Shown: positions 1 to 57,830 of the stretch, piece by piece
How the letters are laid out: every line of letters begins with the position of its first letter
Position numbering within the stretch: position 1 is the first letter of the stretch
Source: Lytechinus pictus
Lineage: Eukaryota
Assembly: GCF_037042905.1 (NCBI RefSeq)
Contig: NC_087245.1
Span: 8,682,001-8,746,000 of the forward strand
DNA: 64,000 bases
Direction: 5' to 3'
Translations under genes and position numbers: made by a program
The notes under the pieces: generated by a model
What the model was told of the DNA's origin: nothing
The model's database searches: none
What the model saw: only the letters and a program-made list of their open reading frames with translations

Positions 1-120
1 TAAAAATGGGTACTTCTTAAATCTGAGGTTTATGTAAGTTTGAACAGTGAGCAAAACATGTTCAGGCATAGTTTTGAAAAATTGGGAGGGGGGGGGTGAG
101 CAAATGATATGATTACTAAC

Positions 121-2980: not shown

Positions 2981-3211
2981 TTAAGTACACTACATTCATC
3001 TGACTAATAATGATGAATAATAATAGCTAGATTAATTTACACTTCCTCAAGAGGAATACAAAGCACACCTACAATCCTGTTCTCATCTACTTTCTTGAAC
3101 TATATTGGTAGAAACTAGTTTCATGGAACCAGTTTAAGGGATTCTCCAAGCAGTCTTGGAAGCAATCTCAGCAGTGGTCTTCTATACCAGTTTGGAAGAC
3201 CACCTTCAAAT

Positions 3212-5251: not shown

Positions 5252-6078
5252 TTAAAAAACACATGAGGGTGTTTAGTGGTACAAGAACTAGAAACAGGAA
5301 ATTTGTTTTCCTGTAATTGTACACTGAGGTACGTGATATATCCCTGGATCTATTGGAGAAATAGCTTGCCATAAATTTGAAAATTTATGTCACAGGTTTA
5401 TATTAAAGTATAAATCTCAAAACTTTTGAAAATTAGTGATTTAGAGTATCAGCGTGCTGTCATCATTTACAAGTATACTAACTGGTTCAAATCAAAGAGG
5501 TATAAAGGGACCTCCTGACACAAACTAAAACCTTAAATTAAATTCCCTTAAAACATATCTTTTTGCTCAATAATTCATTTTTCTCTTTACGACTGATTGT
5601 GTTTACTTTTGTACATGTATATAAATATTGAAAATGTAATTATTTTTTCCATTCATTTTACACCCTAATATAAAAAAAATTATGAAGAATAAAATATAAA
5701 AAAATTAAGGAAAATAATATACGTAACCAATTGAATAAAATAAAATCCTATTGTGAGCCCAATGTACATTTACTTAAAAAAAAATATATAATTAAAATAA
5801 ACACTAACATTTATCTACAAATTTATTAATATATAATCCCATTCTCCAAGTCTAGCAACCATAGCATATAGTAAAGACGGAGGCTGCAGTTATTGCCTTT
5901 GCCATTACGCTGAACACCAGGGATAGGTTCACAGCCACAATTTGTAGTCTTCTCTGCATCAGCTGTATCGCTTGCATTCAGCATAAGGGCAAGGACAATA
6001 ACTGCAGCTTCCACTTACATGTAAGTTCTATGACCACAACAGTATCATATATTCCCCAATTTCTAAAAATAGCCTGTA

Positions 6079-38140: not shown

Positions 38141-38339
<199 letters not shown>

Positions 38340-38548
38340 GTGAGGTAGTTGTGTTTTTTTCGAGCTCCGGTTTTTCTGGTTTTTCACTGATTTATATGAC
38401 CATTTGGTCCTTGATTTTTGTACCATTACAATTGTGTTGGGTTATAGATTGATATAGTCTCGATCCTCCTTCGTCAGGTTTACCAATTTTAGTGTTTTTT
38501 AAACACATTTTCTGTTATTTTTTGTAAGGTTTCTAGACTGGTTCGTAC

Positions 38549-40093: not shown

Positions 40094-40147
40094 TTCCTTT
40101 TTACCTTCTCTCCATTCATTACGTACGCTCAAGTTGCTATAGCCATA

Positions 40148-43100
40148 ATGGCACTGTCAATGCTGACCCTCAACACCGGAGGATGCTCCTCCCAAACTCA
40201 AAATGCCTCCTTCCGAGTTTATGTTGAGCAAATTGCATGCAACCCGCTCGTTGTATTTTTACAGGAAACTTACCACCTTAAAGATAGCAATCCTTGCTGG
40301 AGCAACTGGTCGCATAAACCTTTTTGCTCACCCGGTATTACTCGAGGGTCAGGAGTGTCAACTTTGGTTAATAATTCTCAAGTCGATATTTTATCTACTT
40401 GTATTGTTTTTGATGGCTATATATTGTATAACAAGCTCTCCCATAATAACTGTATTTATCATGTATACAACACACTCATTCCTCAATCTGATGAAATGGC
40501 AATTAAAGCTATTAATGCCCTTAATTGTCATATATCCACCTGTTGCGAAGATAATATTGTGATTGTGGGTGATTTTAATTGCACTGAAAATCCTGCGATT
40601 GATCGTTTGTGCACGCTCACAGAACGCAGACCTAAACTTGTTACGGCTTTGCAAAATGTTCTGAATAAATCTTCTCTTTGTGATGCATGGCGTTTTCTAA
40701 ATCCAAATGAAAAGAAATTCACCTGGCAACGGCACAATCCAGCCAGTGCACAGGGCTTTTCAAAGTCTAGATTAGATCGATTTTATGTACCATCGTGTCT
40801 AGTTTCTTCTATTCATAAGTGTGAAATTATACCTTGTTCCTTATCTGACCACTCTGCAGTTTCTCTAACCTTGAAATTTCCAATACGAGCTAAAGGAAAA
40901 AGTGCATATTGGATTTTTAATAACACTCTTTTGGAAGACGAAAGTTACATTGATATTATTCGTCTTTTTTGGTCAGATTGGCAAAAAGAAAAAAATGACT
41001 TCCCGAATCTTGCATCTTGGTGGGATTTCGGCAAGGTTCATATAAAATCAATTACTCAAATGTATAGCAAAAAAATAGTACAAAGGAAAAGGCAAGCTCT
41101 AATAGAAATTAACAAAGAGATTGATAAACTTCAGAGCGCAAAAGAATCTAGCCAACAAGATAAATATACTCTCGACGAGCATAGAAATGCATTAAACTCG
41201 TTACTGAAAAATGAAGCACGCGGAGCTCTTGTGAGGTCTCGCTTTAAATACACAAATGAAACAGACTCATGCTCCAATTTTTTCTTCAACTTAGAAAAAA
41301 AGAATTCCTTATCAAAAAGTATATCCCGCATTCGGCTCGCTTCGGGACGTATTTCGGAGAACCCTTCTGAGATAAAAAATCATGTTCGGGAATTTTATGA
41401 ATCTCTTTACACTCGAAAGCCAACTGACAAGAGCGCCATCAATAGTTTACTTGTAAATATCAAGACGCTTGATCCGTCCTTATCAAAGGACCTTGAGAAT
41501 CCAATATCTGTAGAAGAACTTGATAATGCTGTCAAGCAGCTAGGCAAAAATAAGTCTCCTGGTATCGATGGACTTACCTCTGAATTTTATCATGTCTTTT
41601 GGCCCATGCTCAAAGATGATTTTCTCGAAGTTCTTACCTCCTCTCTTGAATCTGGATTTTTACCATACTCTTTTAGGAGGGCGGTCATTACTTTACTCCC
41701 CAAAAAAGGAGACCTCGCTGATATTTCAAATTGGCGTCCCGTCTCCCTCCTCAACACAGACTATAAAATTTTTGCTAGGCTGCTTGCCAGTAGGCTAAAA
41801 TCATGCATTGACCATGTTATTGGAAGAGACCAAAGTTATTGTATCCCCGGTCGTTCTATTTATGACAACATTAATCTCATTAGAGATATTTTGTTCTATG
41901 CAAACACTGATAATATTTCTTTGGCTGTATTGAACTTGGACCAGAAAAAGGCATTTGATAATGTAGATCATGTTTATTTATTCAATGTTATGAAACGCAT
42001 GGGCTTTGGAAGTCATTTTATATCTTATATACAAATTCTGTATGAAGGGGCTGAAAGCCTTATTAAAGTGTGTGGATCCCTGACAGCTCCCTTCCCCTTT
42101 GAGAAAGGAATACGACAGGGATGCCCTCTATCAGGGTTGCTATATACTCTCGCCATTGAGCCTCTCCTGAACTCACTAAGAGAGAACGTGTCAAATCATG
42201 CATTAAATATCCCTGCAATTAACAAACGTTGTGTAGTATCTGCATATGCAGACGATGTATCGATATTTGTTACAGCCGATGCTGGCTTTGAATTAGTTGA
42301 ACAAACTTACAATATGTTTAGTCTGGCCTCTGCTGCATGTTTAAATACAAAAAAATCACAAGGCCTTTGGGTCGGCCGTTGGAAAGGGCGGAATGATAAA
42401 CCCCTCAACTTTTCTTGGAATAGTGAAGGTCTCCCTTTTTTAGGAGTTCATTTAGGGAACACCTTTAATTATTCTAAACAAAACTGGATTAAATGTAAAG
42501 AAAGACTTAATAAGACTTTCATTTCGTGGTCTCGTTTATCGACCTCACTCTCATTTAAAGGCAAGGTATTGATTGCAAACCAGCTCGCTGCATCAAAAAT
42601 ATTTCATGTTCTTGCAGTTCTTTCTCCTCCTGAAAATGTATTAAACGAACTTCAGAATTTAATTGTGAATTTTATCTGGTCAAATAAGCGGCACTGGTTA
42701 AAGAAAGAAGTGTTGTATGAAAAACCTGACGAAGGAGGGCTGGGGCTAGCTTGTCTCCAAGCTCGTGTTCTAACTTACAGATTTTCGATTATTCAACGGT
42801 TTCTTTCGTTAAATTCTCATCCAGTAAATGACTTTATGGCTCATTTTCTGAGACAGTATTGTAAATTAGGATTTGATTACCATTTGTTCTTTACAAGAAT
42901 TGATCCTAAGTTTTACACAAGTCTTCCAGTTTACTATAGTGAAGTTCTGCGAGCTTGGTTGACATCTGGAGCTCGAATTGTGACACAATCCCTCTCTTTC
43001 AGCCATGCAATTAACATGCCCTTAAGTAGTTTTCATATTATTGATGCAATTGATGTTGATAATTTTTTTCCGACGCGCCTGATGGCATGCGGAGTGAAAC

Positions 43101-44005
43101 TAGTTCGCCATTTGATAAACCACTCAACCGGTCTTTGGATTGAGAGTAGCTGTCTCCAAAAGAACTTTCCAAGAGGACTTCGACAACCATCATCGCGTCT
43201 CATCGAACGTGAAACATTACTCATTCGAACTGCACTCTCTAAAGTTTTTCCTACATATTTTAATGACTCAGGCTGTCAACACGAATACTCTGATTTATTG
43301 TCTGTTCCAGTAACTCCGATCAACTTCACTCTGGCTTCTTCCGAAAATGGACTTACTGCTTCTTCTAAAGCCATCTACACAATCTACAGGAAAGAACTAG
43401 ATAACACGACAATCTCATCAAGCTCACATTGGCATGATACTGGATTTCTCGATCCATCTACAAAAGTGAACTGGCTATCTATCTATCAACTACCAACACC
43501 TAAAAAAGAGGCTGATATTCAATACAAACTCCTTCACAATATTTTACCGTCGCTCACTGTACTCCATCATCTTAATACAGACATTTCTTCTTTTTGCGGA
43601 TGGTGCGGAGAAGCAGGAACCATTCAACATCTGTTCATCGAATGTAAAGGAATTCAACCCCCTCTCAATCTTCTTCATAGACTGTTGAACAATCTCCTCC
43701 CCTCTCTCAAACTTAATTTTGACCTGTACTGGGCACTCATTCCGCATGCCAGAGGGCGTGACAGAAAGATTATCCGCCTTGCTAACTTCCTTATTATTAG
43801 TTTAAAAAGTACAATTTATTTTATGTACCGTACCTCAAATTTCACCGATCCACTTATAATTTGGTTACATCGTCTCAAAAACAGAATACTCTATGAATTT
43901 ACTTATTACAAATTATGTTCTAATATTGATGCTTTTTCACGTAAATGGTGTATGAATAGATTACTTTTTACAATTAACGAGGGCAGCATTGCATGGCTCA
44001 TTTAA
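40148..44005 (+). CDS. Tx1 ORF2p: APE endonuclease + reverse transcriptase + C-terminal zinc finger, 1285 aa
   Basis: APE motifs TLN, LQET, GDFN, SRLD, SDH; RT motifs KSPGIDGL, WRPVSLLNTDYK, LDQKKAFD, GIRQGCPLS, YADD; C-terminal CGWCGEAGTIQHLFIEC. Confidence 0.97.
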   Translation: MALSMLTLNTGGCSSQTQNASFRVYVEQIACNPLVVFLQETYHLKDSNPCWSNWSHKPFCSPGITRGSGVSTLVNNSQVDILSTCIVFDGYILYNKLSHNNCIYHVYNTLIPQSDEMAIKAINALNCHISTCCEDNIVIVGDFNCTENPAIDRLCTLTERRPKLVTALQNVLNKSSLCDAWRFLNPNEKKFTWQRHNPASAQGFSKSRLDRFYVPSCLVSSIHKCEIIPCSLSDHSAVSLTLKFPIRAKGKSAYWIFNNTLLEDESYIDIIRLFWSDWQKEKNDFPNLASWWDFGKVHIKSITQMYSKKIVQRKRQALIEINKEIDKLQSAKESSQQDKYTLDEHRNALNSLLKNEARGALVRSRFKYTNETDSCSNFFFNLEKKNSLSKSISRIRLASGRISENPSEIKNHVREFYESLYTRKPTDKSAINSLLVNIKTLDPSLSKDLENPISVEELDNAVKQLGKNKSPGIDGLTSEFYHVFWPMLKDDFLEVLTSSLESGFLPYSFRRAVITLLPKKGDLADISNWRPVSLLNTDYKIFARLLASRLKSCIDHVIGRDQSYCIPGRSIYDNINLIRDILFYANTDNISLAVLNLDQKKAFDNVDHVYLFNVMKRMGFGSHFISYIQILYEGAESLIKVCGSLTAPFPFEKGIRQGCPLSGLLYTLAIEPLLNSLRENVSNHALNIPAINKRCVVSAYADDVSIFVTADAGFELVEQTYNMFSLASAACLNTKKSQGLWVGRWKGRNDKPLNFSWNSEGLPFLGVHLGNTFNYSKQNWIKCKERLNKTFISWSRLSTSLSFKGKVLIANQLAASKIFHVLAVLSPPENVLNELQNLIVNFIWSNKRHWLKKEVLYEKPDEGGLGLACLQARVLTYRFSIIQRFLSLNSHPVNDFMAHFLRQYCKLGFDYHLFFTRIDPKFYTSLPVYYSEVLRAWLTSGARIVTQSLSFSHAINMPLSSFHIIDAIDVDNFFPTRLMACGVKLVRHLINHSTGLWIESSCLQKNFPRGLRQPSSRLIERETLLIRTALSKVFPTYFNDSGCQHEYSDLLSVPVTPINFTLASSENGLTASSKAIYTIYRKELDNTTISSSSHWHDTGFLDPSTKVNWLSIYQLPTPKKEADIQYKLLHNILPSLTVLHHLNTDISSFCGWCGEAGTIQHLFIECKGIQPPLNLLHRLLNNLLPSLKLNFDLYWALIPHARGRDRKIIRLANFLIISLKSTIYFMYRTSNFTDPLIIWLHRLKNRILYEFTYYKLCSNIDAFSRKWCMNRLLFTINEGSIAWLI

Positions 44006-44144
44006 ACATTTGATTTTATAACTCTGTGCTTGTAATCAACCTGATCTCATTTGAATGTTTATGTCAAACTATTCTTTTATTATATACCTGACTTTTGTGA
44101 TTATAATTTGTAAATAAAGTTTTCATTTGAAAAGTCAAAAAAAG

Positions 44145-44192
<48 letters not shown>

Positions 44193-44403
44193 TCGTGAGG
44201 TAGTTGTGTTTTTTTCGAGCTCCGGTTTTTCTGGTTTTTCACTGATTTATATGACCATTTGGTCCTTGATTTTTGTACCATTACAATTGTGTTGGGTTAT
44301 AGATTGATATAGTCTCGATTCTCCTTCGTCAGGTTTACCAATTTTAGTGTTTTTTAAACACATTTTCTGTTGTTTTTTGTAAGGTTTCTAGACTGGTTCG
44401 TAC

Positions 44404-45948
44404 ATGGCCAGTCAAGCAAACCAACGTAGTGTACAGGGCCAGCGTACCACAAGTGCAGCTGGCCCTTTGTTAAACAATGTAGGACATTTTAAAAATGTCA
44501 CCCGTCACAATGGTGTAAGCTTTCAAGCTATTGAAAATGTAACGATACAATCTTATATCAATGTCTTTACTACAACTATACCCCCTAATGACGTAATATC
44601 TGCCTCTCGCATCTCTAATGGTCGCATAGCTGTGTATCTAAAATCAAAAGAAGCTGTTATCAATGCTGTACAAAAAGGCCTTGAGTATGAGGGGGCCTTT
44701 CTTGAACTAACCCCCCTTGTACGGCCCACTACTCGAGTCATTTTATCTAATGTATACCCAGAACTACCGAATTCTGTCTTGACTGAAAATCTAGCACCTT
44801 TTTGCAAAGTTGTGTCCGACTGCAAACCAATACCTCTAGGATTTAAAGACAAACGTCTAAACCATATTATGAGTTTTAGAAGGCACGTTCAAGTGTTAGT
44901 GAAACCTAACACAACACTTCCAGATAACATTAATTTCGTGTTTTCAGGTATGAACTATCGTGTTTTTATTTCAACTGAGTCAGTCAGATGTTTTAACTGT
45001 GGTGAATTTGGTCATATTTCCCGCAATTGTAAGAAACCTCAAACAAGCACAAATACTAATCAGTCAAAGACAAACGCTGCCCCAGTTTCAAATGACACGA
45101 GAGTGCGCCAGCGCGGATCCTCCCCGCCCCTCACTACGGTTTCGGACCCCATGCCACCATCACCTCCCCCCTTGGCGGCAACTACAATGCCCCCACCTGT
45201 ACCCACCTCCTCTGATTTCCCTAGTTTACCACCTCGTGATTGTGGGCCCCTTTCTACCTCAGCCACCCCCTCGCGCATCAGGAAGCCTCAATCCTCCCCA
45301 CTGCACATACCTCTGACATCACCTGCTCAGCCGTCCAGCAATTCAACTACCACGCCCATAGTCGTGTCCTCCAAGTCCCCTCCCCCCAAATCTATTTCTG
45401 CGTGCCCTTCGCCTGTGTGGAAAACTCCCCCATCACCTGTCCGAACTTTCTCTGAAGTTGTTTCAAAACGTAAGCAACTAACACCCGAATCAAACGAAAA
45501 CAATACTACTCTTACTACACTGAAGGCCCCCTCTCCTCTTCGGAAAGTGGCCAGGAAAGCTCCCTCCTCCCAAACCGAAACCGTAGACTCTCCAACCTTA
45601 ACGCAAGTCCTTGACTCCCAAACCCCCAATATCCCTCCTACCCCATCCTCCACAGTTGGAGATTCATCTACCGACACTGACTCCATGACTTGGGAAGATG
45701 CCCAAACGGATGAAGATGTCCCGAAGGAAGATGCACTCCCATTGACTCAAGGCCCCCTCTCCCAAGGCCAAATTGTGAAATTTCTGTCAAACGTAAAAGG
45801 GCGGAAAAAGCCTGCCCAGATTGCACGGAAATATACATCAAATATTCCAGGGCTAGTTAAACAATTAAAGCCCCTGAAAAACAGCCCCCTAGTAAAACGT
45901 AACATGCAGCAGAGGATATACAAATTGATCAGCACTCTGGAGAGCTAA
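44404..45948 (+). CDS. Tx1 ORF1p, copy 2, intact 514 aa
   Basis: Differs from copy 1 at two residues (IPAN->IPPN, VQML->VQVL). Confidence 0.92.
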   Translation: MASQANQRSVQGQRTTSAAGPLLNNVGHFKNVTRHNGVSFQAIENVTIQSYINVFTTTIPPNDVISASRISNGRIAVYLKSKEAVINAVQKGLEYEGAFLELTPLVRPTTRVILSNVYPELPNSVLTENLAPFCKVVSDCKPIPLGFKDKRLNHIMSFRRHVQVLVKPNTTLPDNINFVFSGMNYRVFISTESVRCFNCGEFGHISRNCKKPQTSTNTNQSKTNAAPVSNDTRVRQRGSSPPLTTVSDPMPPSPPPLAATTMPPPVPTSSDFPSLPPRDCGPLSTSATPSRIRKPQSSPLHIPLTSPAQPSSNSTTTPIVVSSKSPPPKSISACPSPVWKTPPSPVRTFSEVVSKRKQLTPESNENNTTLTTLKAPSPLRKVARKAPSSQTETVDSPTLTQVLDSQTPNIPPTPSSTVGDSSTDTDSMTWEDAQTDEDVPKEDALPLTQGPLSQGQIVKFLSNVKGRKKPAQIARKYTSNIPGLVKQLKPLKNSPLVKRNMQQRIYKLISTLES

Positions 45949-46002
45949 TTCCTTTTTACCTTCTCTCCATTCATTACGTACGCTCAAGTTGCTATAGCCA
46001 TA

Positions 46003-49000
46003 ATGGCACTGTCAATGCTGACCCTCAACACCGGAGGATGCTCCTCCCAAACTCAAAATGCCTCCTTCCGAGTTTATGTTGAGCAAATTGCATGCAACCC
46101 GCTCGTTGTATTTTTACAGGAAACTTACCACCTTAAAGATAGCAATCCTTGCTGGAGCAACTGGTCGCATAAACCTTTTTGCTCACCCGGTATTACTCGA
46201 GGGTCAGGAGTGACAACTTTGGTTAATAATTCTCAAGTCGATATTTTATCTACTTGTATTGTTTTTGATGGCTATATATTGTATAACAAGCTCTCCCATA
46301 ATAACTGTATTTATCATGTATACAACACACTCATTCCTCAATCTGATGAAATGGCAATTAAAGCTATTAATGCCCTTAATTGTCATATATCCACCTGTTG
46401 CGAAGATAATATTGTGATTGTGGGTGATTTTAATTGCACTGAAAATCCTGCGATTGATCGTTTGTGCACGCTCACAGAACGCAGACCTAAACTTGTTACG
46501 GCTTTGCAAAATGTTCTGAATAAATCTTCTCTTTGTGATGCATGGCGTTTTCTAAATCCAAATGAAAAGAAATTCACCTGGCAACGGCACAATCCAGCCA
46601 GTGCACAGGGCTTTTCAAAATCTAGATTAGATCGATTTTATGTACCATCGTTTCTAGTTTCTTCTATTCATAAGTGTGAAATTATACCTTGTTCCTTATC
46701 TGACCACTCTGCAGTTTCTCTAACCTTGAAATTTCCAATACGAGCTAAAGGAAAAAGTGCATATTGGATTTTTAATAACACTCTTTTGGAAGACGAAAGT
46801 TACATTGATATTATTCGTCTTTTTTGGTCAGATTGGCAAAAAGAAAAAAATGACTTCCCGAATCTTGCATCTTGGTGGGATTTCGGCAAGGTTCATATAA
46901 AATCAATTACTCAAATGTATAGCAAAAAAATAGTACAAAGGAAAAGGCAAGCTCTAATAGAAATTAACAAAGAGATTGATAAACTTCAGAGCGCAAAAGA
47001 ATCTAGCCAACAAGATAAATATACTCTCGACGAGCATAGAAATGCATTAAACTCGTTACTGAAAAATGAAGCACGCGGAGCTCTTGTGAGGTCTCGCTTT
47101 AAATACACAAATGAAACAGACTCATGCTCCAATTTTTTCTTCAACTTAGAAAAAAAGAATTCCTTATCAAAAAGTATATCCCGCATTCGGCTCGCTTCGG
47201 GACGTATTTCGGAGAACCCTTCTGAGATAAAAAATCATGTTCGGGAATTTTATGAATCTCTTTACACTCGAAAGCCAACTGACAAGAGCGCCATCAATAG
47301 TTTACTTGTAAATATCAAGACGCTTGATCCGTCCTTATCAAAGGACCTTGAGAATCCAATATCTGTAGAAGAACTTGATAATGCTGTCAAGCAGCTAGGC
47401 AAAAATAAGTCTCCTGGTATCGATGGACTTACCTCTGAATTTTATCATGTCTTTTGGCCCATGCTCAAAGATGAATTTCTCGAAGTTCTTACCTCCTCTC
47501 TTAAATCTGGATTTTTACCATACTCTTTTAGGAGGGCGGTCATTACTTTACTCCCCAAAAAAGGAGACCTCGCTGATATTTCAAATTGGCGTCCCGTCTC
47601 CCTCCTCAACACAGACTATAAAATTTTTGCTAGGCTGCTTGCCAGTAGGCTAAAATCATGCATTGACCATGTTATTGGAAGAGACCAAAGTTATTGTATC
47701 CCCGGTCGTTCTATTTATGACAACATTAATCTCATTAGAGATATTTTGTTCTATGCAAACACTGATAATATTTCTTTGGCTGTATTGAACTTGGACCAGA
47801 AAAAGGCATTTGATAATGTAGATCATGTTTATTTATTCAATGTTATGAAACGCATGGGCTTTGGAAGTCATTTTATATCTTATATACAAATTCTGTATGA
47901 AGGGGCTGAAAGCCTTATTAAAGTGTGTGGATCCCTGACAGCTCCCTTCCCCTTTGAGAAAGGAATACGACAGGGATGCCCTCTATCAGGGTTGCTATAT
48001 ACTCTCGCCATTGAGCCTCTCCTGAACTCACTAAGAGAGAACGTGTCAAATCATGCATTAAATATCCCTGCTATTAACAAACGTTGTGTAGTATCTGCAT
48101 ATGCAGACGATGTATCGATATTTGTTACAGCCGATGCTGGCTTTGAATTAGTTGAACAAACTTACAATATGTTTAGTCTGGCCTCTGCTGCATGTTTAAA
48201 TACAAAAAAATCACAAGGCCTTTGGGTCGGCCGTTGGAAAGGGCGGAATGATAAACCCCTCAACTTTTCTTGGAATAGTGAAGGTCTCCCTTTTTTAGGA
48301 GTTCATTTAGGGAACACCTTTAATTATTCTAAACAAAACTGGATTAAATGTAAAGAAAGACTTAATAAGACTTTCATTTCGTGGTCTCGTTTATCGAACT
48401 CACTCTCATTTAAAGGCAAGGTATTGATTGCAAACCAGCTCGCTGCATCAAAAATATTTCATGTTCTTGCAGTTCTTTCTCCTCCTGAAAATGTATTAAA
48501 CGAACTTCAGAATTTAATTGTGAATTTTATCTGGTCAAATAAGCGGCACTGGTTAAAGAAAGAAGTGTTGTATGAAAAACCTGACGAAGGAGGGCTGGGG
48601 CTAGCTTGTCTCCAAGCTCGTGTTCTAACTTACAGATTTTCGATTATTCAACGGTTTCTTTCGTTAAATTCTCATCCAGTAAATGACTTTATGGCTCATT
48701 TTCTGAGACAGTATTGTAAATTAGGATTTGATTACCATTTGTTCTTTACAAGAATTGATCCTAAGTTTTACACAAGTCTTCCAGTTTACTATAGTGAAGT
48801 TCTGCGAGCTTGGTTGACATCTGGAGCTCGAATTGTGACACAATCCCTCTCTTTCAGCCATGCAATTAACATGCCCTTAAGTAGTTTTCATATTATTGAT
48901 GCAATTGATGTTGATAATTTTTTTCCGACGCGCCTGATGGCATGCGGAGTGAAACTAGTTCGCCATTTGATAAACCACTCAACCGGTCTTTGGATTGAGA

Positions 49001-49860
49001 GTAGCTGTCTCCAAAAGAACTTTCCAAGAGGACTTCGACAACCATCATCGCGTCTCATCGAACGTGAAACATTACTCATTCGAACTGCACTCTCTAAAGT
49101 TTTTCCTACATATTTTAATGACTCAGGCTGTCAACACGAATACTCTGATTTATTGTCTGTTCCAGTAACTCCGATCAACTTCACTCTGGCTTCTTCCGAA
49201 AATGGACTTACTGCTTCTTCTAAAGCCATCTACACAATCTACAGGAAAGAACTAGATAACACGACAATCTCATCAAGCTCACATTGGCATGATACTGGAT
49301 TTCTCGATCCATCTACAAAAGTGAACTGGCTATCTATCTATCAACTACCAACACCTAAAAAAGAGGCTGATATTCAATACAAACTCCTTCACAATATTTT
49401 ACCGTCGCTCACTGTACTCCATCATCTTAATACAGACATTTCTTCTTTTTGCGGATGGTGCGGAGAAGCAGGAACCATTCAACATCTGTTCATCGAATGT
49501 AAAGGAATTCAACCCCCTCTCAATCTTCTTCATAGACTGTTGAACAATCTCCTCCCCTCTCTCAAACTTAATTTTGACCTGTACTGGGCACTCATTCCGC
49601 ATGCCAGAGGGCGTGACAGAAAGATTATCCGCCTTGCTAATTTCCTTATTATTAGTTTAAAAAGTACAATTTATTTTATGTACCGTACCTCAAATTTCAC
49701 CGATCCACTTATAATTTGGTTACATCGTCTCAAAAACAGAATACTCTATGAATTTACTTACTACAAATTATGTTCTAATATTGATGCTTTTTCACGTAAA
49801 TGGTGTATGAATAGATTACTTTTTACAATTAACGAGGGCAGCATTGCATGGCTCATTTAA
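46003..49860 (+). CDS. Tx1 ORF2p, copy 2, intact 1285 aa
   Basis: About five amino-acid differences from copy 1; all catalytic motifs retained. Confidence 0.97.
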   Translation: MALSMLTLNTGGCSSQTQNASFRVYVEQIACNPLVVFLQETYHLKDSNPCWSNWSHKPFCSPGITRGSGVTTLVNNSQVDILSTCIVFDGYILYNKLSHNNCIYHVYNTLIPQSDEMAIKAINALNCHISTCCEDNIVIVGDFNCTENPAIDRLCTLTERRPKLVTALQNVLNKSSLCDAWRFLNPNEKKFTWQRHNPASAQGFSKSRLDRFYVPSFLVSSIHKCEIIPCSLSDHSAVSLTLKFPIRAKGKSAYWIFNNTLLEDESYIDIIRLFWSDWQKEKNDFPNLASWWDFGKVHIKSITQMYSKKIVQRKRQALIEINKEIDKLQSAKESSQQDKYTLDEHRNALNSLLKNEARGALVRSRFKYTNETDSCSNFFFNLEKKNSLSKSISRIRLASGRISENPSEIKNHVREFYESLYTRKPTDKSAINSLLVNIKTLDPSLSKDLENPISVEELDNAVKQLGKNKSPGIDGLTSEFYHVFWPMLKDEFLEVLTSSLKSGFLPYSFRRAVITLLPKKGDLADISNWRPVSLLNTDYKIFARLLASRLKSCIDHVIGRDQSYCIPGRSIYDNINLIRDILFYANTDNISLAVLNLDQKKAFDNVDHVYLFNVMKRMGFGSHFISYIQILYEGAESLIKVCGSLTAPFPFEKGIRQGCPLSGLLYTLAIEPLLNSLRENVSNHALNIPAINKRCVVSAYADDVSIFVTADAGFELVEQTYNMFSLASAACLNTKKSQGLWVGRWKGRNDKPLNFSWNSEGLPFLGVHLGNTFNYSKQNWIKCKERLNKTFISWSRLSNSLSFKGKVLIANQLAASKIFHVLAVLSPPENVLNELQNLIVNFIWSNKRHWLKKEVLYEKPDEGGLGLACLQARVLTYRFSIIQRFLSLNSHPVNDFMAHFLRQYCKLGFDYHLFFTRIDPKFYTSLPVYYSEVLRAWLTSGARIVTQSLSFSHAINMPLSSFHIIDAIDVDNFFPTRLMACGVKLVRHLINHSTGLWIESSCLQKNFPRGLRQPSSRLIERETLLIRTALSKVFPTYFNDSGCQHEYSDLLSVPVTPINFTLASSENGLTASSKAIYTIYRKELDNTTISSSSHWHDTGFLDPSTKVNWLSIYQLPTPKKEADIQYKLLHNILPSLTVLHHLNTDISSFCGWCGEAGTIQHLFIECKGIQPPLNLLHRLLNNLLPSLKLNFDLYWALIPHARGRDRKIIRLANFLIISLKSTIYFMYRTSNFTDPLIIWLHRLKNRILYEFTYYKLCSNIDAFSRKWCMNRLLFTINEGSIAWLI

Positions 49861-49998
49861 ACATTTGATTTTATAACTCTGTGCTTGTAATCAACCTGAT
49901 CTCATTTGAATGTTTATGTCAAACTATTCTTTTATTATATACCTGACTTTTGTGATTATAATTTGTAAATAAAGTTTTCATTTGAAAAGTCAAAAAAG

Positions 49999-50042
<44 letters not shown>

Positions 50043-50253
50043 TCGTGAGGTGGTTGTGTTTTTTTCGAGCTCCGGTTTTTCTGGTTTTTCGCTGATTTGT
50101 GTGACCATTTGGTCCTTGATTTTTGTACCATTGCGGTTGTGTTGGGTTATAGATTGATGTGGTCTCGATCCTCCTTCGTCGGGTTTGCCAGTTTTGGTGT
50201 TTTTTGGACACATTTTCTGTTATTTTTTGTGAGGTTTCTGGACTGGTTCGTGC

Positions 50254-51798
50254 GTGGCCGGTCGGGCAAGCCAGCGTGGTGTGCGGGGCCAGCGTGCCAC
50301 AGGTGCGGCTGGCCCTTTGTTAAACAATGTAGGACATTTTGAGGGTGTCACCCGTCACGGTGGTGTGGGCTTTCAAGCTGTTGAGGGTGTAACGATGCAA
50401 TCTTGTATCAGTGTCTTTACTGCAGCTGTGCCCGCTAATGACGTGGTATCTGCCTCTCGCATCTCTGATGGTCGCGTGGCTGTGTATCTGGGATCGGAGG
50501 AGGCTGTTATCAATGCTGTGCAGAAGGGCCTTGAGTATGAGGGGGCCTTTCTTGAACTGGCCCCCCTTGTGCGGCCCGCTGCTCGGGTCATTTTATCTGA
50601 TGTGTGCCCAGAGCTGCCGAATTCTGTCTTGACTGGGGGTCTAGCACCTTTTTGCAAAGTTGTGTCCGACTGCAGACCAATACCTCTGGGATTTGGGGAC
50701 AAGCGTCTGAACCATATTGTGAGTTTTGGAGGGCACGTTCAGGTGTTAGTGAAACCTAACACAACACTTCCAGATAACATTAATTTCGTGTTTTCAGGTA
50801 TGAACTATCGTGTTTTTATTTCAACTGAGTCAGTCAGATGTTTTAACTGTGGTGAATTTGGTCATATTTCCCGCAATTGTAAGAAACCTCAAACAAGCAC
50901 AAATACTAATCAGTCAAAGACAAACGCTGCCCCAGTTTCAAATGACACGAGAGTGCGCCAGCGCGGATCCTCCCCGCCCCTCACTACGGTTTCGGACCCC
51001 ATGCCACCATCACCTCCCCCCTTGGCGGCAACTACAATGCCCCCACCTGTACCCACCTCCTCTGATTTCCCTAGTTTACCACCTCGTGATTGTGGGCCCC
51101 TTTCTACCTCAGCCACCCCCTCGCGCATCAGGAAGCCTCAATCCTCCCCACTGCACATACCTCTGACATCACCTGCTCAGCCGTCCAGCAATTCAACTAC
51201 CACGCCCATAGTCGTGTCCTCCAAGTCCCCTCCCCCCAAATCTATTTCTGCGTGCCCTTCGCCTGTGTGGAAAACTCCCCCATCACCTGTCCGAACTTTC
51301 TCTGAAGTTGTTTCAAAACGTAAGCAACTAACACCCGAATCAAACGAAAACAATACTACTCTTACTACACTGAAGGCCCCCTCTCCTCTTCGGAAAGTGG
51401 CCAGGAAAGCTCCCTCCTCCCAAACCGAAACCGTAGACTCTCCAACCTTAACGCAAGTCCTTGACTCCCAAACCCCCAATATCCCTCCTACCCCATCCTC
51501 CACAGTTGGAGATTCATCTACCGACACTGACTCCATGACTTGGGAAGATGCCCAAACGGATGAAGATGTCCCGAAGGAAGATGCACTCCCATTGACTCAA
51601 GGCCCCCTCTCCCAAGGCCAAATTGTGAAATTTCTGTCAAACGTAAAAGGGCGGAAAAAGCCTGCCCAGATTGCACGGAAATATACATCAAATATTCCAG
51701 GGCTAGTTAAACAATTAAAGCCCCTGAAAAACAGCCCCCTAGTAAAACGTAACATGCAGCAGAGGATATACAAATTGATCAGCACTCTGGAGAGCTAA
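50254..51798 (+). pseudogene. Tx1 ORF1 copy 3, hyper-edited (start ATG->GTG, N-terminal ~163 codons heavily recoded)
   Basis: Frame remains open but ATG became GTG at 50254; residues shared by copies 1 and 2 are altered (SNVYP->SDVCP, MSFRR->VSFGG); identical to copies 1/2 after ~codon 164. Confidence 0.88.
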
Positions 51799-51852
51799 TT
51801 CCTTTTTACCTTCTCTCCATTCATTACGTACGCTCAAGTTGCTATAGCCATA

Positions 51853-54800
51853 ATGGCACTGTCAATGCTGACCCTCAACACCGGAGGATGCTCCTCCCAA
51901 ACTCAAAATGCCTCCTTCCGAGTTTATGTTGAGCAAATTGCATGCAACCCGCTCGTTGTATTTTTACAGGAAACTTACCACCTTAAAGATAGCAATCCTT
52001 GCTGGAGCAACTGGTCGCATAAACCTTTTTGCTCACCCGGTATTACTCGAGGGTCAGGAGTGTCAACTTTGGTTAATAATTCTCAAGTCGATATTTTATC
52101 TACTTGTATTGTTTTTGATGGCTATATATTGTATAACAAGCTCTCCCATAATAACTGTATTTATCATGTATACAACACACTCATTCCTCAATCTGATGAA
52201 ATGGCAATTAAAGCTATTAATGCCCTTAATTGTCATATATCCACCTGTTGCGAAGATAATATTGTGATTGTGGGTGATTTTAATTGCACTGAAAATCCTG
52301 CGATTGATCGTTTGTGCACGCTCACAGAACGCAGACCTAAACTTGTTACGGCTTTGCAAAATGTTCTGAATAAATCTTCTCTTTGTGATGCATGGCGTTT
52401 TCTAAATCCAAATGAAAAGAAATTCACCTGGCAACGGCACAATCCAGCCAGTGCACAGGGCTTTTCAAAGTCTAGATTAGATCGATTTTATGTACCATCG
52501 TGTCTAGTTTCTTCTATTCATAAGTGTGAAATTATACCTTGTTCCTTATCTGACCACTCTGCAGTTTCTCTAACCTTGAAATTTCCAATACGAGCTAAAG
52601 GAAAAAGTGCATATTGGATTTTTAATAACACTCTTTTGGAAGACGAAAGTTACATTGATATTATTCGTCTTTTTTGGTCAGATTGGCAAAAAGAAAAAAA
52701 TGACTTCCCGAATCTTGCATCTTGGTGGGATTTCGGCAAGGTTCATATAAAATCAATTACTCAAATGTATAGCAAAAAAATAGTACAAAGGAAAAGGCAA
52801 GCTCTAATAGAAATTAACAAAGAGATTGATAAACTTCAGAGCGCAAAAGAATCTAGCCAACAAGATAAATATACTCTCGACGAGCATAGAAATGCATTAA
52901 ACTCGTTACTGAAAAATGAAGCACGCGGAGCTCTTGTGAGGTCTCGCTTTAAATACACAAATGAAACAGACTCATGCTCCAATTTTTTCTTCAACTTAGA
53001 AAAAAAGAATTCCTTATCAAAAAGTATATCCCGCATTCGGCTCGCTTCGGGACGTATTTCGGAGAACCCTTCTGAGATAAAAAATCATGTTCGGGAATTT
53101 TATGAATCTCTTTACACTCGAAAGCCAACTGACAAGAGCGCCATCAATAGTTTACTTGTAAATATCAAGACGCTTGATCCGTCCTTATCAAAGGACCTTG
53201 AGAATCCAATATCTGTAGAAGAACTTGATAATGCTGTCAAGCAGCTAGGCAAAAATAAGTCTCCTGGTATCGATGGACTTACCTCTGAATTTTATCATGT
53301 CTTTTGGCCCATGCTCAAAGATGATTTTCTCGAAGTTCTTACCTCCTCTCTTGAATCTGGATTTTTACCATACTCTTTTAGGAGGGCGGTCATTACTTTA
53401 CTCCCCAAAAAAGGAGACCTCGCTGATATTTCAAATTGGCGTCCCGTCTCCCTCCTCAACACAGACTATAAAATTTTTGCTAGGCTGCTTGCCAGTAGGC
53501 TAAAATCATGCATTGACCATGTTATTGGAAGAGACCAAAGTTATTGTATCCCCGGTCGTTCTATTTATGACAACATTAATCTCATTAGAGATATTTTGTT
53601 CTATGCAAACACTGATAATATTTCTTTGGCTGTATTGAACTTGGACCAGAAAAAGGCATTTGATAATGTAGATCATGTTTATTTATTCAATGTTATGAAA
53701 CGCATGGGCTTTGGAAGTCATTTTATATCTTATATACAAATTCTGTATGAAGGGGCTGAAAGCCTTATTAAAGTGTGTGGATCCCTGACAGCTCCCTTCC
53801 CCTTTGAGAAAGGAATACGACAGGGATGCCCTCTATCAGGGTTGCTATATACTCTCGCCATTGAGCCTCTCCTGAACTCACTAAGAGAGAACGTGTCAAA
53901 TCATGCATTAAATATCCCTGCAATTAACAAACGTTGTGTAGTATCTGCATATGCAGACGATGTATCGATATTTGTTACAGCCGATGCTGGCTTTGAATTA
54001 GTTGAACAAACTTACAATATGTTTAGTCTGGCCTCTGCTGCATGTTTAAATACAAAAAAATCACAAGGCCTTTGGGTCGGCCGTTGGAAAGGGCGGAATG
54101 ATAAACCCCTCAACTTTTCTTGGAATAGTGAAGGTCTCCCTTTTTTAGGAGTTCATTTAGGGAACACCTTTAATTATTCTAAACAAAACTGGATTAAATG
54201 TAAAGAAAGACTTAATAAGACTTTCATTTCGTGGTCTCGTTTATCGAACTCACTCTCATTTAAAGGCAAGGTATTGATTGCAAACCAGCTCGCTGCATCA
54301 AAAATATTTCATGTTCTTGCAGTTCTTTCTCCTCCTGAAAATGTATTAAACGAACTTCAGAATTTAATTGTGAATTTTATCTGGTCAAATAAGCGGCACT
54401 GGTTAAAGAAAGAAGTGTTGTATGAAAAACCTGACGAAGGAGGGCTGGGGCTAGCTTGTCTCCAAGCTCGTGTTCTAACTTACAGATTTTCGATTATTCA
54501 ACGGTTTCTTTCGTTAAATTCTCATCCAGTAAATGACTTTATGGCTCATTTTCTGAGACAGTATTGTAAATTAGGATTTGATTACCATTTGTTCTTTACA
54601 AGAATTGATCCTAAGTTTTACACAAGTCTTCCAGTTTACTATAGTGAAGTTCTGCGAGCTTGGTTGACATCTGGAGCTCGAATTGTGACACAATCCCTCT
54701 CTTTCAGCCATGCAATTAACATGCCCTTAAGTAGTTTTCATATTATTGATGCAATTGATGTTGATAATTTTTTTCCGACGCGCCTGATGGCATGCGGAGT

Positions 54801-56551
54801 GAAACTAGTTCGCCATTTGATAAACCACTCAACCGGTCTTTGGATTGAGAGTAGCTGTCTCCAAAAGAACTTTCCAAGAGGACTTCGACAACCATCATCG
54901 CGTCTCATCGAACGTGAAACATTACTCATTCGAACTGCACTCTCTAAAGTTTTTCCTACATATTTTAATGACTCAGGCTGTCAACACGAATACTCTGATT
55001 TATTGTCTGTTCCAGTAACTCCGATCAACTTCACTCTGGCTTCTTCCGAAAATGGACTTACTGCTTCTTCTAAAGCCATCTACACAATCTACAGGAAAGA
55101 ACTAGATAACACGACAATCTCATCAAGCTCACATTGGCATGATACTGGATTTCTCGATCCATCTACAAAAGTGAACTGGCTATCTATCTATCAACTACCA
55201 ACACCTAAAAAAGAGGCTGATATTCAATACAAACTCCTTCACAATATTTTACCGTCGCTCACTGTACTCCATCATCTTAATACAGACATTTCTTCTTTTT
55301 GCGGATGGTGCGGAGAAGCAGGAACCATTCAACATCTGTTCATCGAATGTAAAGGAATTCAACCCCCTCTCAATCTTCAAGGCGGTGCTGCACCATCCCG
55401 AGTTTGCTCAATCTCGAGATTTTAGCCCGATCAGCCCTCTTCGCGATTAATCTCGAGATTCAAGAAACCCCGTCTGCACCATCCCACGAGGAGCTATATA
55501 TGCTCGAGCGAGGCAACAAGCCCGATATTCCGGGCATGCGCACTTTCGGATCTTGGAGTTTCAACGGCCCGCGCTTTTGAATAACTTCCCGCGATATGCA
55601 AGCAATGAACTCCTTTCACTAGTACTTTCGCCGAATTCAACCGGTGTTATGCAACAATCCTTTCAGCTCAGCGAGTGAAGAAGTGATGTATTCTTCGTGA
55701 AATATGATGGCGGAGTAGGAGGCAACGACAGAGAGAGAGAGAGAGAGAGGGAGAAGGAGGAAAGAAATGCTATTTGCTCACATTTTGCGAAGGAATAAGA
55801 CAACACTGCTGTCAGTGTTGTTATTGAATATGACCATCGTCGATGCGATGAGCGCCTCCCCCTTCGGTCTGGTCTCTCCCGGGGTCTCTCCCAAAATCCA
55901 TTCACTGGTGGGGACACCATCGTTGCTTATGAACGCTATTCGCATGTGTAAAGTTGACTTTCGCACGTGTTTATGTTTTGACCAAGGCGGAAGTGGAACG
56001 CGAATTGCATTATGGACTGACGTCATGAATAAATTACCCCGAGTCCAATCTCGAGTGCGTCTGCACCGACGAATTAGCGGGATAATTCGTAAAATAGCGC
56101 GCTATTTTGCAAATAAACCCGAGTTGACTTGGGATTGCAATCTCGAGATTAATCCTACGAACTAGCGCGATAATTGCGTCTGCACCGCCAACTATCTCGA
56201 GATTTTTCAGATCGGGATAATTTGCCGGATCAGAAATAGCGCGCTAATTTGAAACTTCGGGATTTTGACCTGTACTGGGCACTCATTCCGCATGCCAGAG
56301 GGCGTGACAGAAAGATTATCCGCCTTGCTAATTTCCTTATTATTAGTTTAAAAAGTACAATTTATTTTATGTACCGTACCTCAAATTTCACCGATCCACT
56401 TATAATTTGGTTACATCGTCTCAAAAACAGAATACTCTATGAATTTACTTATTACAAATTATGTTCTAATATTGATGCTTTTTCACGTAAATGGTGTATG
56501 AATAGATTACTTTTTACAATTAACGAGGGCAGCATTGCATGGCTCATTTAA
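51853..56551 (+). pseudogene. Tx1 ORF2 copy 3, interrupted after the zinc finger
   Basis: Matches copies 1/2 up to ...QPPLNL (~55378), reads into the insertion and stops at 55425; C-terminal FDLYWAL...IAWLI resumes ~56263-56551 with ~42 bp deleted. Confidence 0.9.
55380..56263. mobile_element. Non-autonomous TIR element (~0.88 kb), right TIR truncated
   Basis: Absent from copies 1/2; starts AGGCGGTGCTGCACCATCCCGAGTTT; homologous to 56572-57461; right end fused to host through AT microhomology. Confidence 0.88.
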
Positions 56552-56571
56552 ACATTTGATTTTATAACTCT

Positions 56572-57461
56572 AGGCGGTGCTGCACCATCCCGAGTTTGCT
56601 CAATCTCGAGATTTTAGCCCGATCGGCCCACTTCGCGATTAATCTCGAGATTCAAGAAACCCCGTCTGCACCATCGCAAGACAGCGATTCCTGCTCGAGC
56701 GAGGCAACAAACCCGATATTCAGAGCATGCGCACTTTCGGATCTTGGAGTTTCAACGGCCCGCGCTTTTGAATAACTTCCTGCGATATATGCAAGCAATG
56801 TACTCGTTTCACTATTACTTTCGCCGAATTCGACCGGTGTTATGCAACAATCCTCTCAGCGAGTGAAGAAGTGATGTATTCTTCGTTAAATATGATGGCG
56901 GAGTAGGAGGCAATGACAGAGAGAGAGAGAGAGAGGGAGAGAAGGAGGAAAGAAATGCTATTTGCTCACATTTTGCGAAGGAATAAGACAACACTGCTGT
57001 CAGTGTTGTTATTGAATATGACCATCGTCGATGAGCGCCTCCCCCTTCGGTCTGGTCTCTCCCAAAATCCATTCACTGGTGGGACACCATCGTTGCTTAT
57101 TAGGCAATTGATGAACGCTATTCGCATGTATAAAGTTGACTTTCGCACGTGTTTATGTTTTGACCAAGGCGGAAGTGGAACGCGAATTGCATTATGGACT
57201 GACGTCATGAATAAATTACCCCGAGTCCAATCTCGAGTGCGTCTGCACCGACGAATTAGCGGGATAATTCGTAAAATAGCGCGCTATTTTGCAAATAAAC
57301 CCGAGTTGACTTGGGATTGCAATCTCGAGATTAATCCTATACGAACTAGCGCGATAATTGCGTCTCCACCGCCAACTATCTCGAGATTTTTCAGATCGGG
57401 ATAATTTGCCGGATCAGAAATAGCGCGCTAATTTGAAAACTCGGGATGGTGCAGACGGCCC
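56572..57461. mobile_element. Non-autonomous TIR element (~0.89 kb), complete
   Basis: Imperfect TIRs with 18-bp perfect core CTGCACCATCCCGAGTTT / AAACTCGGGATGGTGCAG; inserted in the Tx1 3'UTR (ACTCT|..|TGCTTG) without a clean TSD; internal (GA)n and repeated AATCTCGAGATT palindromes. Confidence 0.9.
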
Positions 57462-57581
57462 TGCTTGTAATCAACCTGATCTCATTTGAATGTTTATGTC
57501 AAACTATTCTTTTATTATATACCTGACTTTTGTGATTATAATTTGTAAATAAAGTTTTCATTTGAAAAGTCAAAAAAAAAG

Positions 57582-57633
<52 letters not shown>

Positions 57634-57830
57634 TATTTCTTTCTTCCTTCCATCCTTTCTTTCTTTCTTTTGTTCTTTTGTTCTTTCTTTCTTTCTTTCT
57701 TTCTTTCTTTCATTTTTTTTTCTTTCTTTCTTGCTTTCTTTCTTTCTTTCTTTATTTCTTCCTTCCTTTTTTAAATTTCTTTCTTTCTTCCTTCCTTTTT
57801 AAAATTTCTTTCTTTCTTTCATTGGTTCCT
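57582..57830. repeat. (TTTC)n microsatellite downstream of the Tx1 array
   Basis: Pure next to the element, degenerating distally. Confidence 0.93.

What the first reader, a model, noticed from the sequence alone, without database searches (positions are those of the whole stretch)
50045..50743. Genomic fossil of an ADAR hyper-edited retrotransposon RNA (~90 A->G changes in ~700 bp)
Seen in sequence: aligning copy 3 to copies 1 and 2 (offsets 11705 and 5850), every derived difference I found between 50052 and 50742 is A->G on the sense strand, about 90 by hand count. Examples: attacaattg->attgcggttg, ctaaaatcaaaagaag->ctgggatcggaggagg, actgaaaatc->actgggggtc. The rest of the copy is almost identical to its neighbours. 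As after T or A are changed very often, while As after G are almost always spared (I found only two exceptions, 50586 and 50636). Established knowledge: ADAR deaminates A to inosine in long dsRNA in dense clusters and disfavours a 5' G neighbour, and reverse transcriptase reads inosine as G. APOBEC-type editing leaves G->A instead. Inference: an inosine-rich element transcript was copied by target-primed reverse transcription and fixed in the germline, so host RNA editing became a heritable mutation in a LINE-type element. This points to ADAR acting as a mutagenic defence against non-LTR retrotransposons in this lineage.
Basis: partly seen in the sequence, partly recalled or inferred. Interest (0 to 1): 0.95.

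Follow-up and report, generated by a model that had tools for sequence, protein, structure and literature searches.

The report
ADAR-hyperedited LINE copy fixed in genome
One copy of a young jumping gene carries about ninety A-to-G changes in its first 700 bases with the fingerprint of the RNA-editing enzyme ADAR, so an edited RNA was most likely copied back into the genome, a process known from retroviruses but rarely seen this cleanly in a LINE.

Summary
Three tandem copies of a 5.85-kb non-LTR retrotransposon align without gaps. Over 5,380 aligned bases, copy 3 has 90 private changes. All 90 are A>G on the sense strand, and all lie in 50052-50742.

- 90 of 190 ancestral A are changed; 0 of 237 T are changed.
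- 5' neighbour: T 40/57, A 36/63, C 12/43, G 2/27. 3' neighbour: G favoured, T disfavoured. This is the ADAR preference.
- A is ancestral: 3,018 of 3,060 base calls in 34 other genomic copies.
- The G-rich version occurs nowhere else in the genome.
- 22 other full-length copies have 1-14 private changes each, of mixed types.
- The genome encodes an ADAR with two dsRNA-binding motifs and a deaminase domain.
- The element is a Tx1-group LINE specific for (TTTC)n microsatellites.

Best reading (0.8): an element RNA hyper-edited in a long duplex over its first ~700 nt was reverse-transcribed and integrated. The duplex partner, probably an antisense transcript, was not found. Raw reads could not be checked. 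A "defence" role is not shown: 1 of 37 copies is edited. This is a new member of a known kind. The scan's earlier notes hold no similar case.

The parts
38151..38339 (+). (TTTC)n microsatellite upstream of copy 1; the target sequence of the family
   Evidence: TRF, 47 units. 20 of 20 dispersed copies have the same repeat directly upstream.
38340..44194 (+). Copy 1, unedited and full length. ORF1 38549-40093 (514 aa, CCHC knuckle); ORF2 40148-44005 (1285 aa, APE + RT + zf-RVT); (TCTT)12.5 tail 44145-44194.
44195..50044 (+). Copy 2, unedited and full length. ORF1 44404-45948; ORF2 46003-49860; (TCTT)11.5 tail 49999-50044.
50045..55378 (+). Copy 3, element nt 1-5334. Apart from the edited tract it has no private substitution.
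50052..50742 (+). Hyper-edited tract: 90 A>G changes (element nt 8-698), 18 in the 5' UTR and 72 in ORF1
50254..50256 (+). ORF1 start codon ATG changed to GTG. 38 amino-acid changes follow up to codon 164, with no new stop. The next in-frame ATG is at 50395.
55379..56261 (+). Insertion 1 of an ~885-bp element with terminal inverted repeats (MITE-like) in ORF2 of copy 3, with loss of 42 bp of the LINE
   Evidence: 100% identical copies elsewhere; 1,532 first-look candidates
56262..56571 (+). Copy 3, continuation (equals copy 1 positions 43716-44025)
56572..57461 (+). Insertion 2 of the same MITE-like family (92.7% identical to insertion 1) in the 3' UTR of copy 3
57462..57820 (+). 3' end of copy 3 (57462-57581) and the downstream (TCTT)n microsatellite (57582-57820)

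Best explanation
A full-length sense transcript of an active Tx1-group, (TTTC)n-specific LINE was held in a long, near-perfect RNA duplex over its first ~700 nt. The partner was most likely an antisense transcript starting about 705-720 nt inside the element. The host ADAR deaminated about half of the adenosines on the sense strand. The element's reverse transcriptase then copied the inosine-rich RNA by target-primed reverse transcription into a (TCTT)n tract, reading I as G. The new copy (copy 3) therefore carries 90 A>G changes.

Shown:
- the substitution pattern, its context bias, its polarity and its uniqueness;
- the retrotransposon nature of the element;
- the microsatellite target;
- a host ADAR gene.

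Inferred:
- that the enzyme was ADAR;
- that editing took place on RNA before reverse transcription;
- that the partner strand was an antisense transcript.
For: (1) 90 of 90 private changes of copy 3 are A>G on the sense strand, inside 691 nt of 5,334. 0 of 237 T are changed.
(2) 90 of 190 A are edited (47%), spread evenly in 50-nt bins and stopping abruptly: 9 of 20 in the last bin, then 0 of 67 A in the next 200 nt.
(3) 5' neighbour: T 40/57, A 36/63, C 12/43, G 2/27 (chi-square p 2.6e-8). 3' neighbour: G 21/34 against T 18/49 (Fisher p 0.028). Zhang et al. 2023 report the same order across metazoans (PMC9989829, passage read).
(4) A is ancestral: 3,018 of 3,060 calls at the 90 sites in 34 other copies. 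The edited version matches only itself; the next best hit is 87%.
(5) The other 22 full-length copies have 1-14 private changes each, of mixed type (pooled 129, of which 12 are A>G).
(6) The tract starts at element nt 8. The 46-nt microsatellite upstream has no A, and 0 of 39 A further upstream are changed. The 5' limit therefore coincides with the start of the element RNA.
(7) The element has APE + RT. Its relatives are named Tx1. 20 of 20 dispersed copies abut (TTTC)n.
(8) The genome encodes an ADAR: one exon carries two dsrm motifs and the first half of the A_deamin domain, and the second half lies 3 kb downstream.
(9) Edited A are not enriched in the element's own predicted fold (paired 44/90 against 56/100). 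The element has no long inverted repeat (longest 31 nt at 77%). This points to an intermolecular duplex.
(10) Precedent: ADAR-type A>G hyper-editing has been reported in avian retroviruses (Felder 1994; Hajjar and Linial 1995, as cited in PMC8586724, passage read).
Against: - No duplex partner was found. The antisense transcript is a prediction only.
- Raw reads could not be examined, so an assembly-level artefact is not formally excluded.
- Only one copy of 37 shows the pattern, so it is a single event.
- In human cells, ADAR1 restricts L1 without editing it, and no editing of L1 RNA was seen (PMC5224506, passages read). Editing of a LINE template is therefore not the general rule.
- The overall 3' neighbour test is not significant (p 0.17).
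- Hyper-edited RNAs are usually retained or degraded (recalled knowledge), so this copy would be a rare escape.
Confidence: 0.8

Rival explanations
1. Deamination at the DNA level by ADAR in a DNA:RNA hybrid. An antisense transcript forms an R-loop with the sense DNA strand of the already integrated copy 3, and ADAR deaminates dA there.
For: The pattern is equally strand-specific and ADAR-like. [quoted passage not shown] An antisense RNA crossing the upstream (TCTT)n tract would be purine-rich and prone to forming hybrids (inference).
Against: Editing 47% of dA over 700 nt in a hybrid is unprecedented, and dI in DNA is repaired (both recalled knowledge). The 5' limit coincides with the start of the element RNA, which a DNA-level event does not predict. 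Neither neighbouring identical copy is touched.
Confidence: 0.05
2. An edited RNA reached the genome by another route. Either a partial cDNA of an edited RNA replaced the 5' 700 nt of a pre-existing copy by gene conversion, or reverse transcriptase switched at about nt 700 from an unedited template to a fully edited one.
For: The 3' limit is sharp. Outside the tract, copy 3 differs from copy 1 at only 2 of 5,244 sites.
Against: This needs an extra event. LINE cDNAs are normally truncated at the 5' end, not the 3' end (established knowledge). Dispersed copies are as close to copy 3 (3-4 differences) as its neighbour is, so nothing calls for a local donor.
Confidence: 0.05
3. Assembly or polishing artefact, for example hyper-edited cDNA or RNA reads entering the consensus of a hard-to-assemble tandem repeat.
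For: The region is a tandem array of three copies about 99.8% identical to each other. Read support could not be checked.
Against: The changes are strand-, context- and region-specific, and the other 4,636 aligned bases carry no change private to copy 3. Sequencing errors do not give that. The copy lies in a contiguous context with its own later history of two transposon insertions.
Confidence: 0.04
4. Error-prone DNA synthesis. Either a polymerase-eta-like enzyme (WA>WG) made the first ~700 nt of the second strand, or there was a dNTP-pool bias during retrotransposition.
For: Second-strand synthesis in target-primed reverse transcription begins at the element's 5' end (established model). 76 of 120 A after A or T are changed, against 14 of 70 after C or G.
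Against: Such polymerases give mixed spectra at a few per cent per site (recalled). Here 47% of A are changed, and none of the 509 C, G and T of the tract. The ranking C>G at the 5' side (12/43 against 2/27) and G>T at the 3' side fit ADAR.
Confidence: 0.02

Closest known systems
ADAR-type A>G hypermutated avian retrovirus genomes (RAV-1, Felder et al. 1994; avian leukosis virus, Hajjar and Linial 1995). Known to me from the review PMC8586724 (passage read); the originals were not read.
   Same: dsRNA-dependent A>I editing of a retroelement RNA, read as G by reverse transcriptase and stored as DNA. Dense changes of a single type on a single strand.
   Different: Here the element is a non-LTR (LINE) element that integrates by target-primed reverse transcription. 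The host is an invertebrate, and the copy was found as a resident genomic copy, not in cell culture or a virus stock.
APOBEC G>A hypermutated endogenous retroelements (Knisbacher and Levanon 2016, PMC4866542, passages read; Zaranek et al. 2010, PMC2873906, passages read)
   Same: Genomic 'fossils' of deaminase action on a retroelement, recognised as strand-biased clusters of one mismatch type relative to sibling copies.
   Different: Those arise from C>U on minus-strand cDNA, giving G>A, and are specific to vertebrates. In that screen, invertebrate genomes served as negative controls and A>G clusters were not its object. Here the change is A>G from RNA editing.
[quoted passage not shown] Only its reference entry was seen; the paper is not held.
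   Same: From recall, it discusses ADAR-edited retroelement RNA being written back into mammalian genomes, which is the same idea.
   Different: I could not read it, so I cannot say how many LINE cases it documents or how clean they are. It concerns mammals.
ADAR hyper-editing of young repeats and of sense-antisense transcript pairs across Metazoa (Zhang et al. 2023, PMC9989829, passages read)
   Same: Young repeats, LINEs included, are the main ADAR targets. 86% of sea-urchin editing sites lie in repeats. The same neighbour preferences apply, and intermolecular sense-antisense duplexes are edited in several species.
   Different: That work describes editing in RNA only. Here the edit is hard-wired in DNA.
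Tx1-group microsatellite-specific LINEs: Kibi (TC)n, Koshi (TTC)n, and crocodilian Tx1 families in (TTCC)n/(TTTC)n (Kojima 2015, PMC4494074, passages read; PMC3812793, passage read)
   Same: APE + RT ORF2 with Tx1-named relatives. Every copy examined abuts (TTTC)n. Tandem arrays form through insertion next to earlier copies.
   Different: The host appears to be an echinoderm. No phylogenetic tree was built, so placement within Tx1 rests on named hits at 31-34% identity.

Membership tests
ADAR hyper-editing footprint | One mismatch type (A>G) on one strand only | tested here: met
   90 of 90 private changes are A>G; 0 of 237 T are changed. 88 of 88 when tested against 22 other full-length copies.
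ADAR hyper-editing footprint | Dense cluster, with up to about half of the adenosines of a long duplex changed | tested here: met
   90 of 190 A in 691 nt; 0 of 1,369 A in the remaining aligned part of the copy (50743-55378).
ADAR hyper-editing footprint | 5' neighbour U and A favoured, G disfavoured | tested here: met
   T 70%, A 57%, C 28%, G 7%; p 2.6e-8. The rule is taken from PMC9989829.
ADAR hyper-editing footprint | 3' neighbour G favoured, U disfavoured (a weaker rule) | tested here: inconclusive
   G 62%, C 49%, A 47%, T 37%. The four-way test gives p 0.17; G against T gives p 0.028.
ADAR hyper-editing footprint | A double-stranded RNA substrate covering the edited tract | not testable with these tools
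   There is no intramolecular partner: the longest inverted repeat is 31 nt at 77%, the fold z-score is -1.9, and edits are unrelated to predicted pairing. An antisense RNA would need RNA data, and no run was listed.
ADAR hyper-editing footprint | The host encodes an ADAR (dsRBD + deaminase) | tested here: met
   15 A_deamin exon matches clustering at four chromosomal places. The exon in L037 has two dsrm motifs plus A_deamin positions 1-152.
Retrotransposed copy of an edited RNA | The G state is derived and private to one copy | tested here: met
   A in 3,018 of 3,060 calls in 34 other copies. A genome search with the edited tract finds only itself above 87%.
Retrotransposed copy of an edited RNA | The G alleles are present in raw genomic reads | not testable with these tools
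   The look-up of sequencing runs listed no run.
Tx1 group of the L1 clade, microsatellite-specific | ORF2 with an APE endonuclease, reverse transcriptase and a C-terminal zinc motif; ORF1 present | tested here: met
   Exo_endo_phos scores 22.9 bits, just under its 24.5-bit cut-off. RVT_1 scores 112 bits. zf-RVT scores 26.2 bits, under its 27.5-bit cut-off. ORF1 has zf-CCHC.
Tx1 group of the L1 clade, microsatellite-specific | Insertion into one specific repeat | tested here: met
   20 of 20 dispersed copies and all 3 window copies have (TTTC)n directly 5'. 4 of the 4 copies whose 3' end my script located have it 3' as well.
Tx1 group of the L1 clade, microsatellite-specific | Phylogenetic placement inside Tx1 | not tested
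   Only named hits are available (YTX2, 'transposon TX1 149 kDa protein') at 31-34% identity. No tree was built.

The most novel reading that the evidence does not exclude
The A>G tract was written directly into germline DNA. ADAR deaminated deoxyadenosines of the sense DNA strand inside an R-loop formed by an antisense transcript of the integrated element, which would be natural ADAR-driven DNA hypermutation of a transposon. The data do not exclude this, because the strand, the context bias and the limits would look the same.
Probability: 0.05. Interest if true: 0.9.

Novelty: new member of a known kind. Interest (0 to 1): 0.55.

Why it matters
This is a very clean natural record that RNA editing can become a heritable DNA change through a LINE. 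It contains one event, 90 sites, no background noise, known polarity and sibling copies as controls.

It shows that in this animal an active LINE RNA met ADAR in a ~700-nt duplex. That gives a testable prediction: an antisense promoter about 700 nt inside the element, as in human L1 (recalled).

It also offers a way to map dsRNA regions of retrotransposons from genomes alone. And it shows how a single event can create a copy 13% diverged over the ~700-nt tract, which would mislead age estimates based on divergence.

It does not show that ADAR is a defence against LINEs.

Tried and rejected
- Raw-read check: the look-up of sequencing runs with the edited tract listed no run, and no RNA holder was listed. 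Read laying could therefore not be used.
- Intramolecular duplex: rejected. There is no long inverted repeat in the element. The fold of nt 1-706 is unremarkable (z -1.9, 1 of 20 shuffles as good). Edited and unedited A are equally paired in the predicted fold.
- G-rich version as an older subfamily: rejected.
- Other low-identity hits as further edited copies: rejected. The 89% hit on C5 (L031) and the 89% hit on C3 (L061) are old copies with mixed substitutions and indels.
- Other edited copies in the family: none in nt 1-2300 of 37 copies, and none over the full length of 23 copies. For those I have only nt 1-2300, plus the identity values.
- Local duplication of copy 1 or 2 as the origin of copy 3: not supported and not excluded. 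Copy 3 is 2 differences from copy 1, but only 3-4 from several dispersed copies.
- Literature: seven searches found no paper in the held library that reports a genomic LINE copy with an ADAR-type tract. The most relevant paper by title (Knisbacher and Levanon 2015) is not held, so the idea may well be in print.
- Earlier notes of this scan: no similar case.

Full report
OBSERVATION. The window holds a tandem array of three copies of a 5.8-kb element, each preceded by a (TCTT)n tract. Copy 3 starts at 50045. It aligns without gaps to copy 1 (offset 11705) and to copy 2 (offset 5850) from 49999 to 55378.

In these 5,380 columns, 101 sites vary. Ninety are A in copies 1 and 2 and G in copy 3. Nine are private to copy 2 and two to copy 1. 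Copy 3 has no other private change. The 90 sites lie between 50052 and 50742.

Within 50045-50745, 90 of 190 ancestral A are changed and 0 of 237 T. Outside the tract, 0 of 1,369 A are changed from 50743 to 55378. Also, 0 of 39 A are changed in the 117 nt that precede the A-free microsatellite. Position 50743 is not an edit; it is a change private to copy 1.

POLARITY AND UNIQUENESS. The genome (812 Mb, 368 contigs) holds about 40 copies of the 5' region: 40 were scored of 44 candidates. At the 90 sites, 34 copies outside the window read A in 3,018 of 3,060 calls, G in 20, C in 17, T in 3 and a gap in 2. One site, 50703, is A/G polymorphic in the family (22 A, 12 G).

A genome search with the edited tract finds itself at 100% and nothing else above 87% (40 scored of 43 candidates). 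So G is derived and private to this one copy.

I then scanned for substitutions private to single copies over the full length of 23 copies (20 dispersed and 3 in the window). Copy 3 gives 88 of 88 A>G. The other 22 copies have 1-14 private changes each. Pooled, these are 129 changes: T>C 31, C>T 24, C>A 13, A>G 12, G>A 12 and others. They show no cluster.

Over nt 1-2300, 37 copies were compared, and again only copy 3 shows a cluster of a single type. Two hits at 89% identity, which might have been further edited copies, are old copies with mixed changes and indels. Thirteen copies could not be fetched in full.

THE ELEMENT. ORF1 is 514 aa with a CCHC knuckle. ORF2 is 1,285 aa with an APE-type endonuclease, a reverse transcriptase and a zf-RVT motif. 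Named relatives of ORF2 are 'YTX2' and 'transposon TX1 149 kDa protein', at 31-34% identity.

All 20 dispersed full-length copies have (TTTC)n directly upstream of nt 1. The element is therefore a microsatellite-specific LINE of the Tx1 group. Families of this kind that insert into (TC)n, (TTC)n and (TTCC)n/(TTTC)n are known (PMC4494074 and PMC3812793, passages read).

Tandem pairs with different spacers occur elsewhere in the genome, at 6,570, 6,048 and 5,829 bp between 5' ends. This fits repeated insertion next to earlier copies.

Without the edited sites, copy 3 differs from copy 1 at 2 of 5,244 positions and from dispersed copies at 3-4. It carries no private substitution of any other kind, so it is young.

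Copy 3 later received two insertions of an abundant ~885-bp element with terminal inverted repeats. This gives the locus a history of its own in the genome.

In copy 3 the ORF1 start codon is GTG. Thirty-eight residues are changed up to codon 164, and no stop was created. ORF2 is cut by the first insertion.

THE FINGERPRINT.
- 5' neighbour: the edited fraction is T 40/57, A 36/63, C 12/43, G 2/27 (p 2.6e-8).
- 3' neighbour: G 21/34, C 21/43, A 30/64, T 18/49. The overall test gives p 0.17; G against T gives p 0.028.

Zhang et al. 2023 state that across metazoans the 5' neighbour strongly favours U and A and disfavours G. They also state that the 3' preference is weaker, with G favoured and U disfavoured. 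They find that young repeats are the main targets, with 86% of sea-urchin sites in repeats (PMC9989829, passages read).

The genome encodes an ADAR. One exon on contig 3 carries two dsRNA-binding motifs and A_deamin positions 1-152, and positions 145-329 follow 3 kb downstream. Further A_deamin matches lie at three other chromosomal places.

WHAT WAS THE DUPLEX. Editing of nearly half of all A, evenly over 700 nt, points to a long and nearly perfect duplex (established knowledge of ADAR). The element cannot supply it alone:
- its longest inverted repeat is 31 nt at 77%;
- the fold of nt 1-706 is ordinary (z -1.9);
- edited A are no more often paired in the predicted fold than unedited A (44/90 against 56/100).

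The tract begins at element nt 8. It ends abruptly at nt 698: 9 of 20 A are edited in the last 50-nt bin, then 0 of 67 in the next 200 nt.

The simplest reading is an overlap between the sense RNA, starting at nt 1, and an antisense RNA starting a little beyond nt 700. From recalled end effects of ADAR on duplexes, that start would be around nt 705-720. This is inference, and no RNA data could be obtained.

MECHANISM AND RIVALS. The best explanation (0.8) is that sense element RNA was hyper-edited by ADAR in that duplex, then copied by target-primed reverse transcription into a (TCTT)n tract with inosine read as G.

The rivals are:
- ADAR acting on dA of the integrated copy in a DNA:RNA hybrid (0.05). 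The ability is cited in PMC7693803, but this does not explain why the tract starts at the RNA's 5' end.
- A cDNA-mediated conversion or a template switch (0.05). This still involves an edited RNA.
- An assembly artefact (0.04). It could not be tested, but it fits poorly with a pattern that is strand-, context- and region-specific in an otherwise error-free copy.
- Error-prone second-strand synthesis of the polymerase-eta type (0.02). This would give WA>WG, but a 47% rate with none of the 509 C, G and T of the tract changed speaks against it.

COMPARISON AND NOVELTY. A>G hyper-editing attributed to ADAR has been reported in avian retroviruses (Felder 1994; Hajjar and Linial 1995; seen only as cited in PMC8586724).

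Genomic 'fossils' of deaminase action are well documented for APOBEC as G>A changes. In that screen, invertebrates served as negative controls (PMC4866542; PMC2873906).

For human L1, ADAR1 restricts retrotransposition without editing (PMC5224506).

A 2015 review by Knisbacher and Levanon, whose title names RNA editing of retrotransposons, is not held. From recall it raises the same idea for mammals.

Seven searches found no report of a LINE copy with such a tract. I therefore class this as a new member of a known kind: a known principle, shown here very cleanly for a non-LTR element in an invertebrate. Earlier notes of this scan call the genome a sea urchin's; I did not check that.

The claim that ADAR defends this lineage against LINEs is not supported by one edited copy among 37.

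Noticed in passing
window 55379-56261 and 56572-57461: Two insertions of an ~885-bp non-coding element with ~23-bp terminal inverted repeats (MITE-like), 92.7% identical to each other, both in the 3' part of copy 3. The first comes with a 42-bp deletion of the LINE. The family is very abundant (more than 1,500 first-look candidates) and includes copies 100% identical to the first insertion.
   Followed up: partly
window 40091-40150 (the same in copies 2 and 3): ORF1 and ORF2 of the LINE lie in the same reading frame. They are separated by a single TAA and a stop-free 54-nt spacer before the ORF2 ATG. Read-through or re-initiation may link the two.
   Followed up: no
22 unedited full-length copies (L041-L060, window copies 1 and 2): Private substitutions are asymmetric between strands. 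T>C is 31 against A>G 12 on the sense strand (binomial p 0.006 after allowing for base content); C>T is 24 against G>A 12 (p 0.31). This may reflect errors made at the RNA or reverse-transcription step instead of after integration.
   Followed up: partly
L049 (G000:C9:20487912-20494112), element nt 3697-4321: Four of the eight private changes of this copy are T>C within 625 nt. This is a weak cluster of the complementary type and is too small to interpret.
   Followed up: no
whole genome, this LINE family: There are few 5'-truncated copies: 42-44 first-look candidates for 5' segments against 66 for the last 1.1 kb. Most copies are full length, with 98-100% identity.
   Followed up: partly
window 61396-62503: Tandem array of a 233-bp unit, 4.8 copies, 83% matches. 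It was not examined.
   Followed up: no
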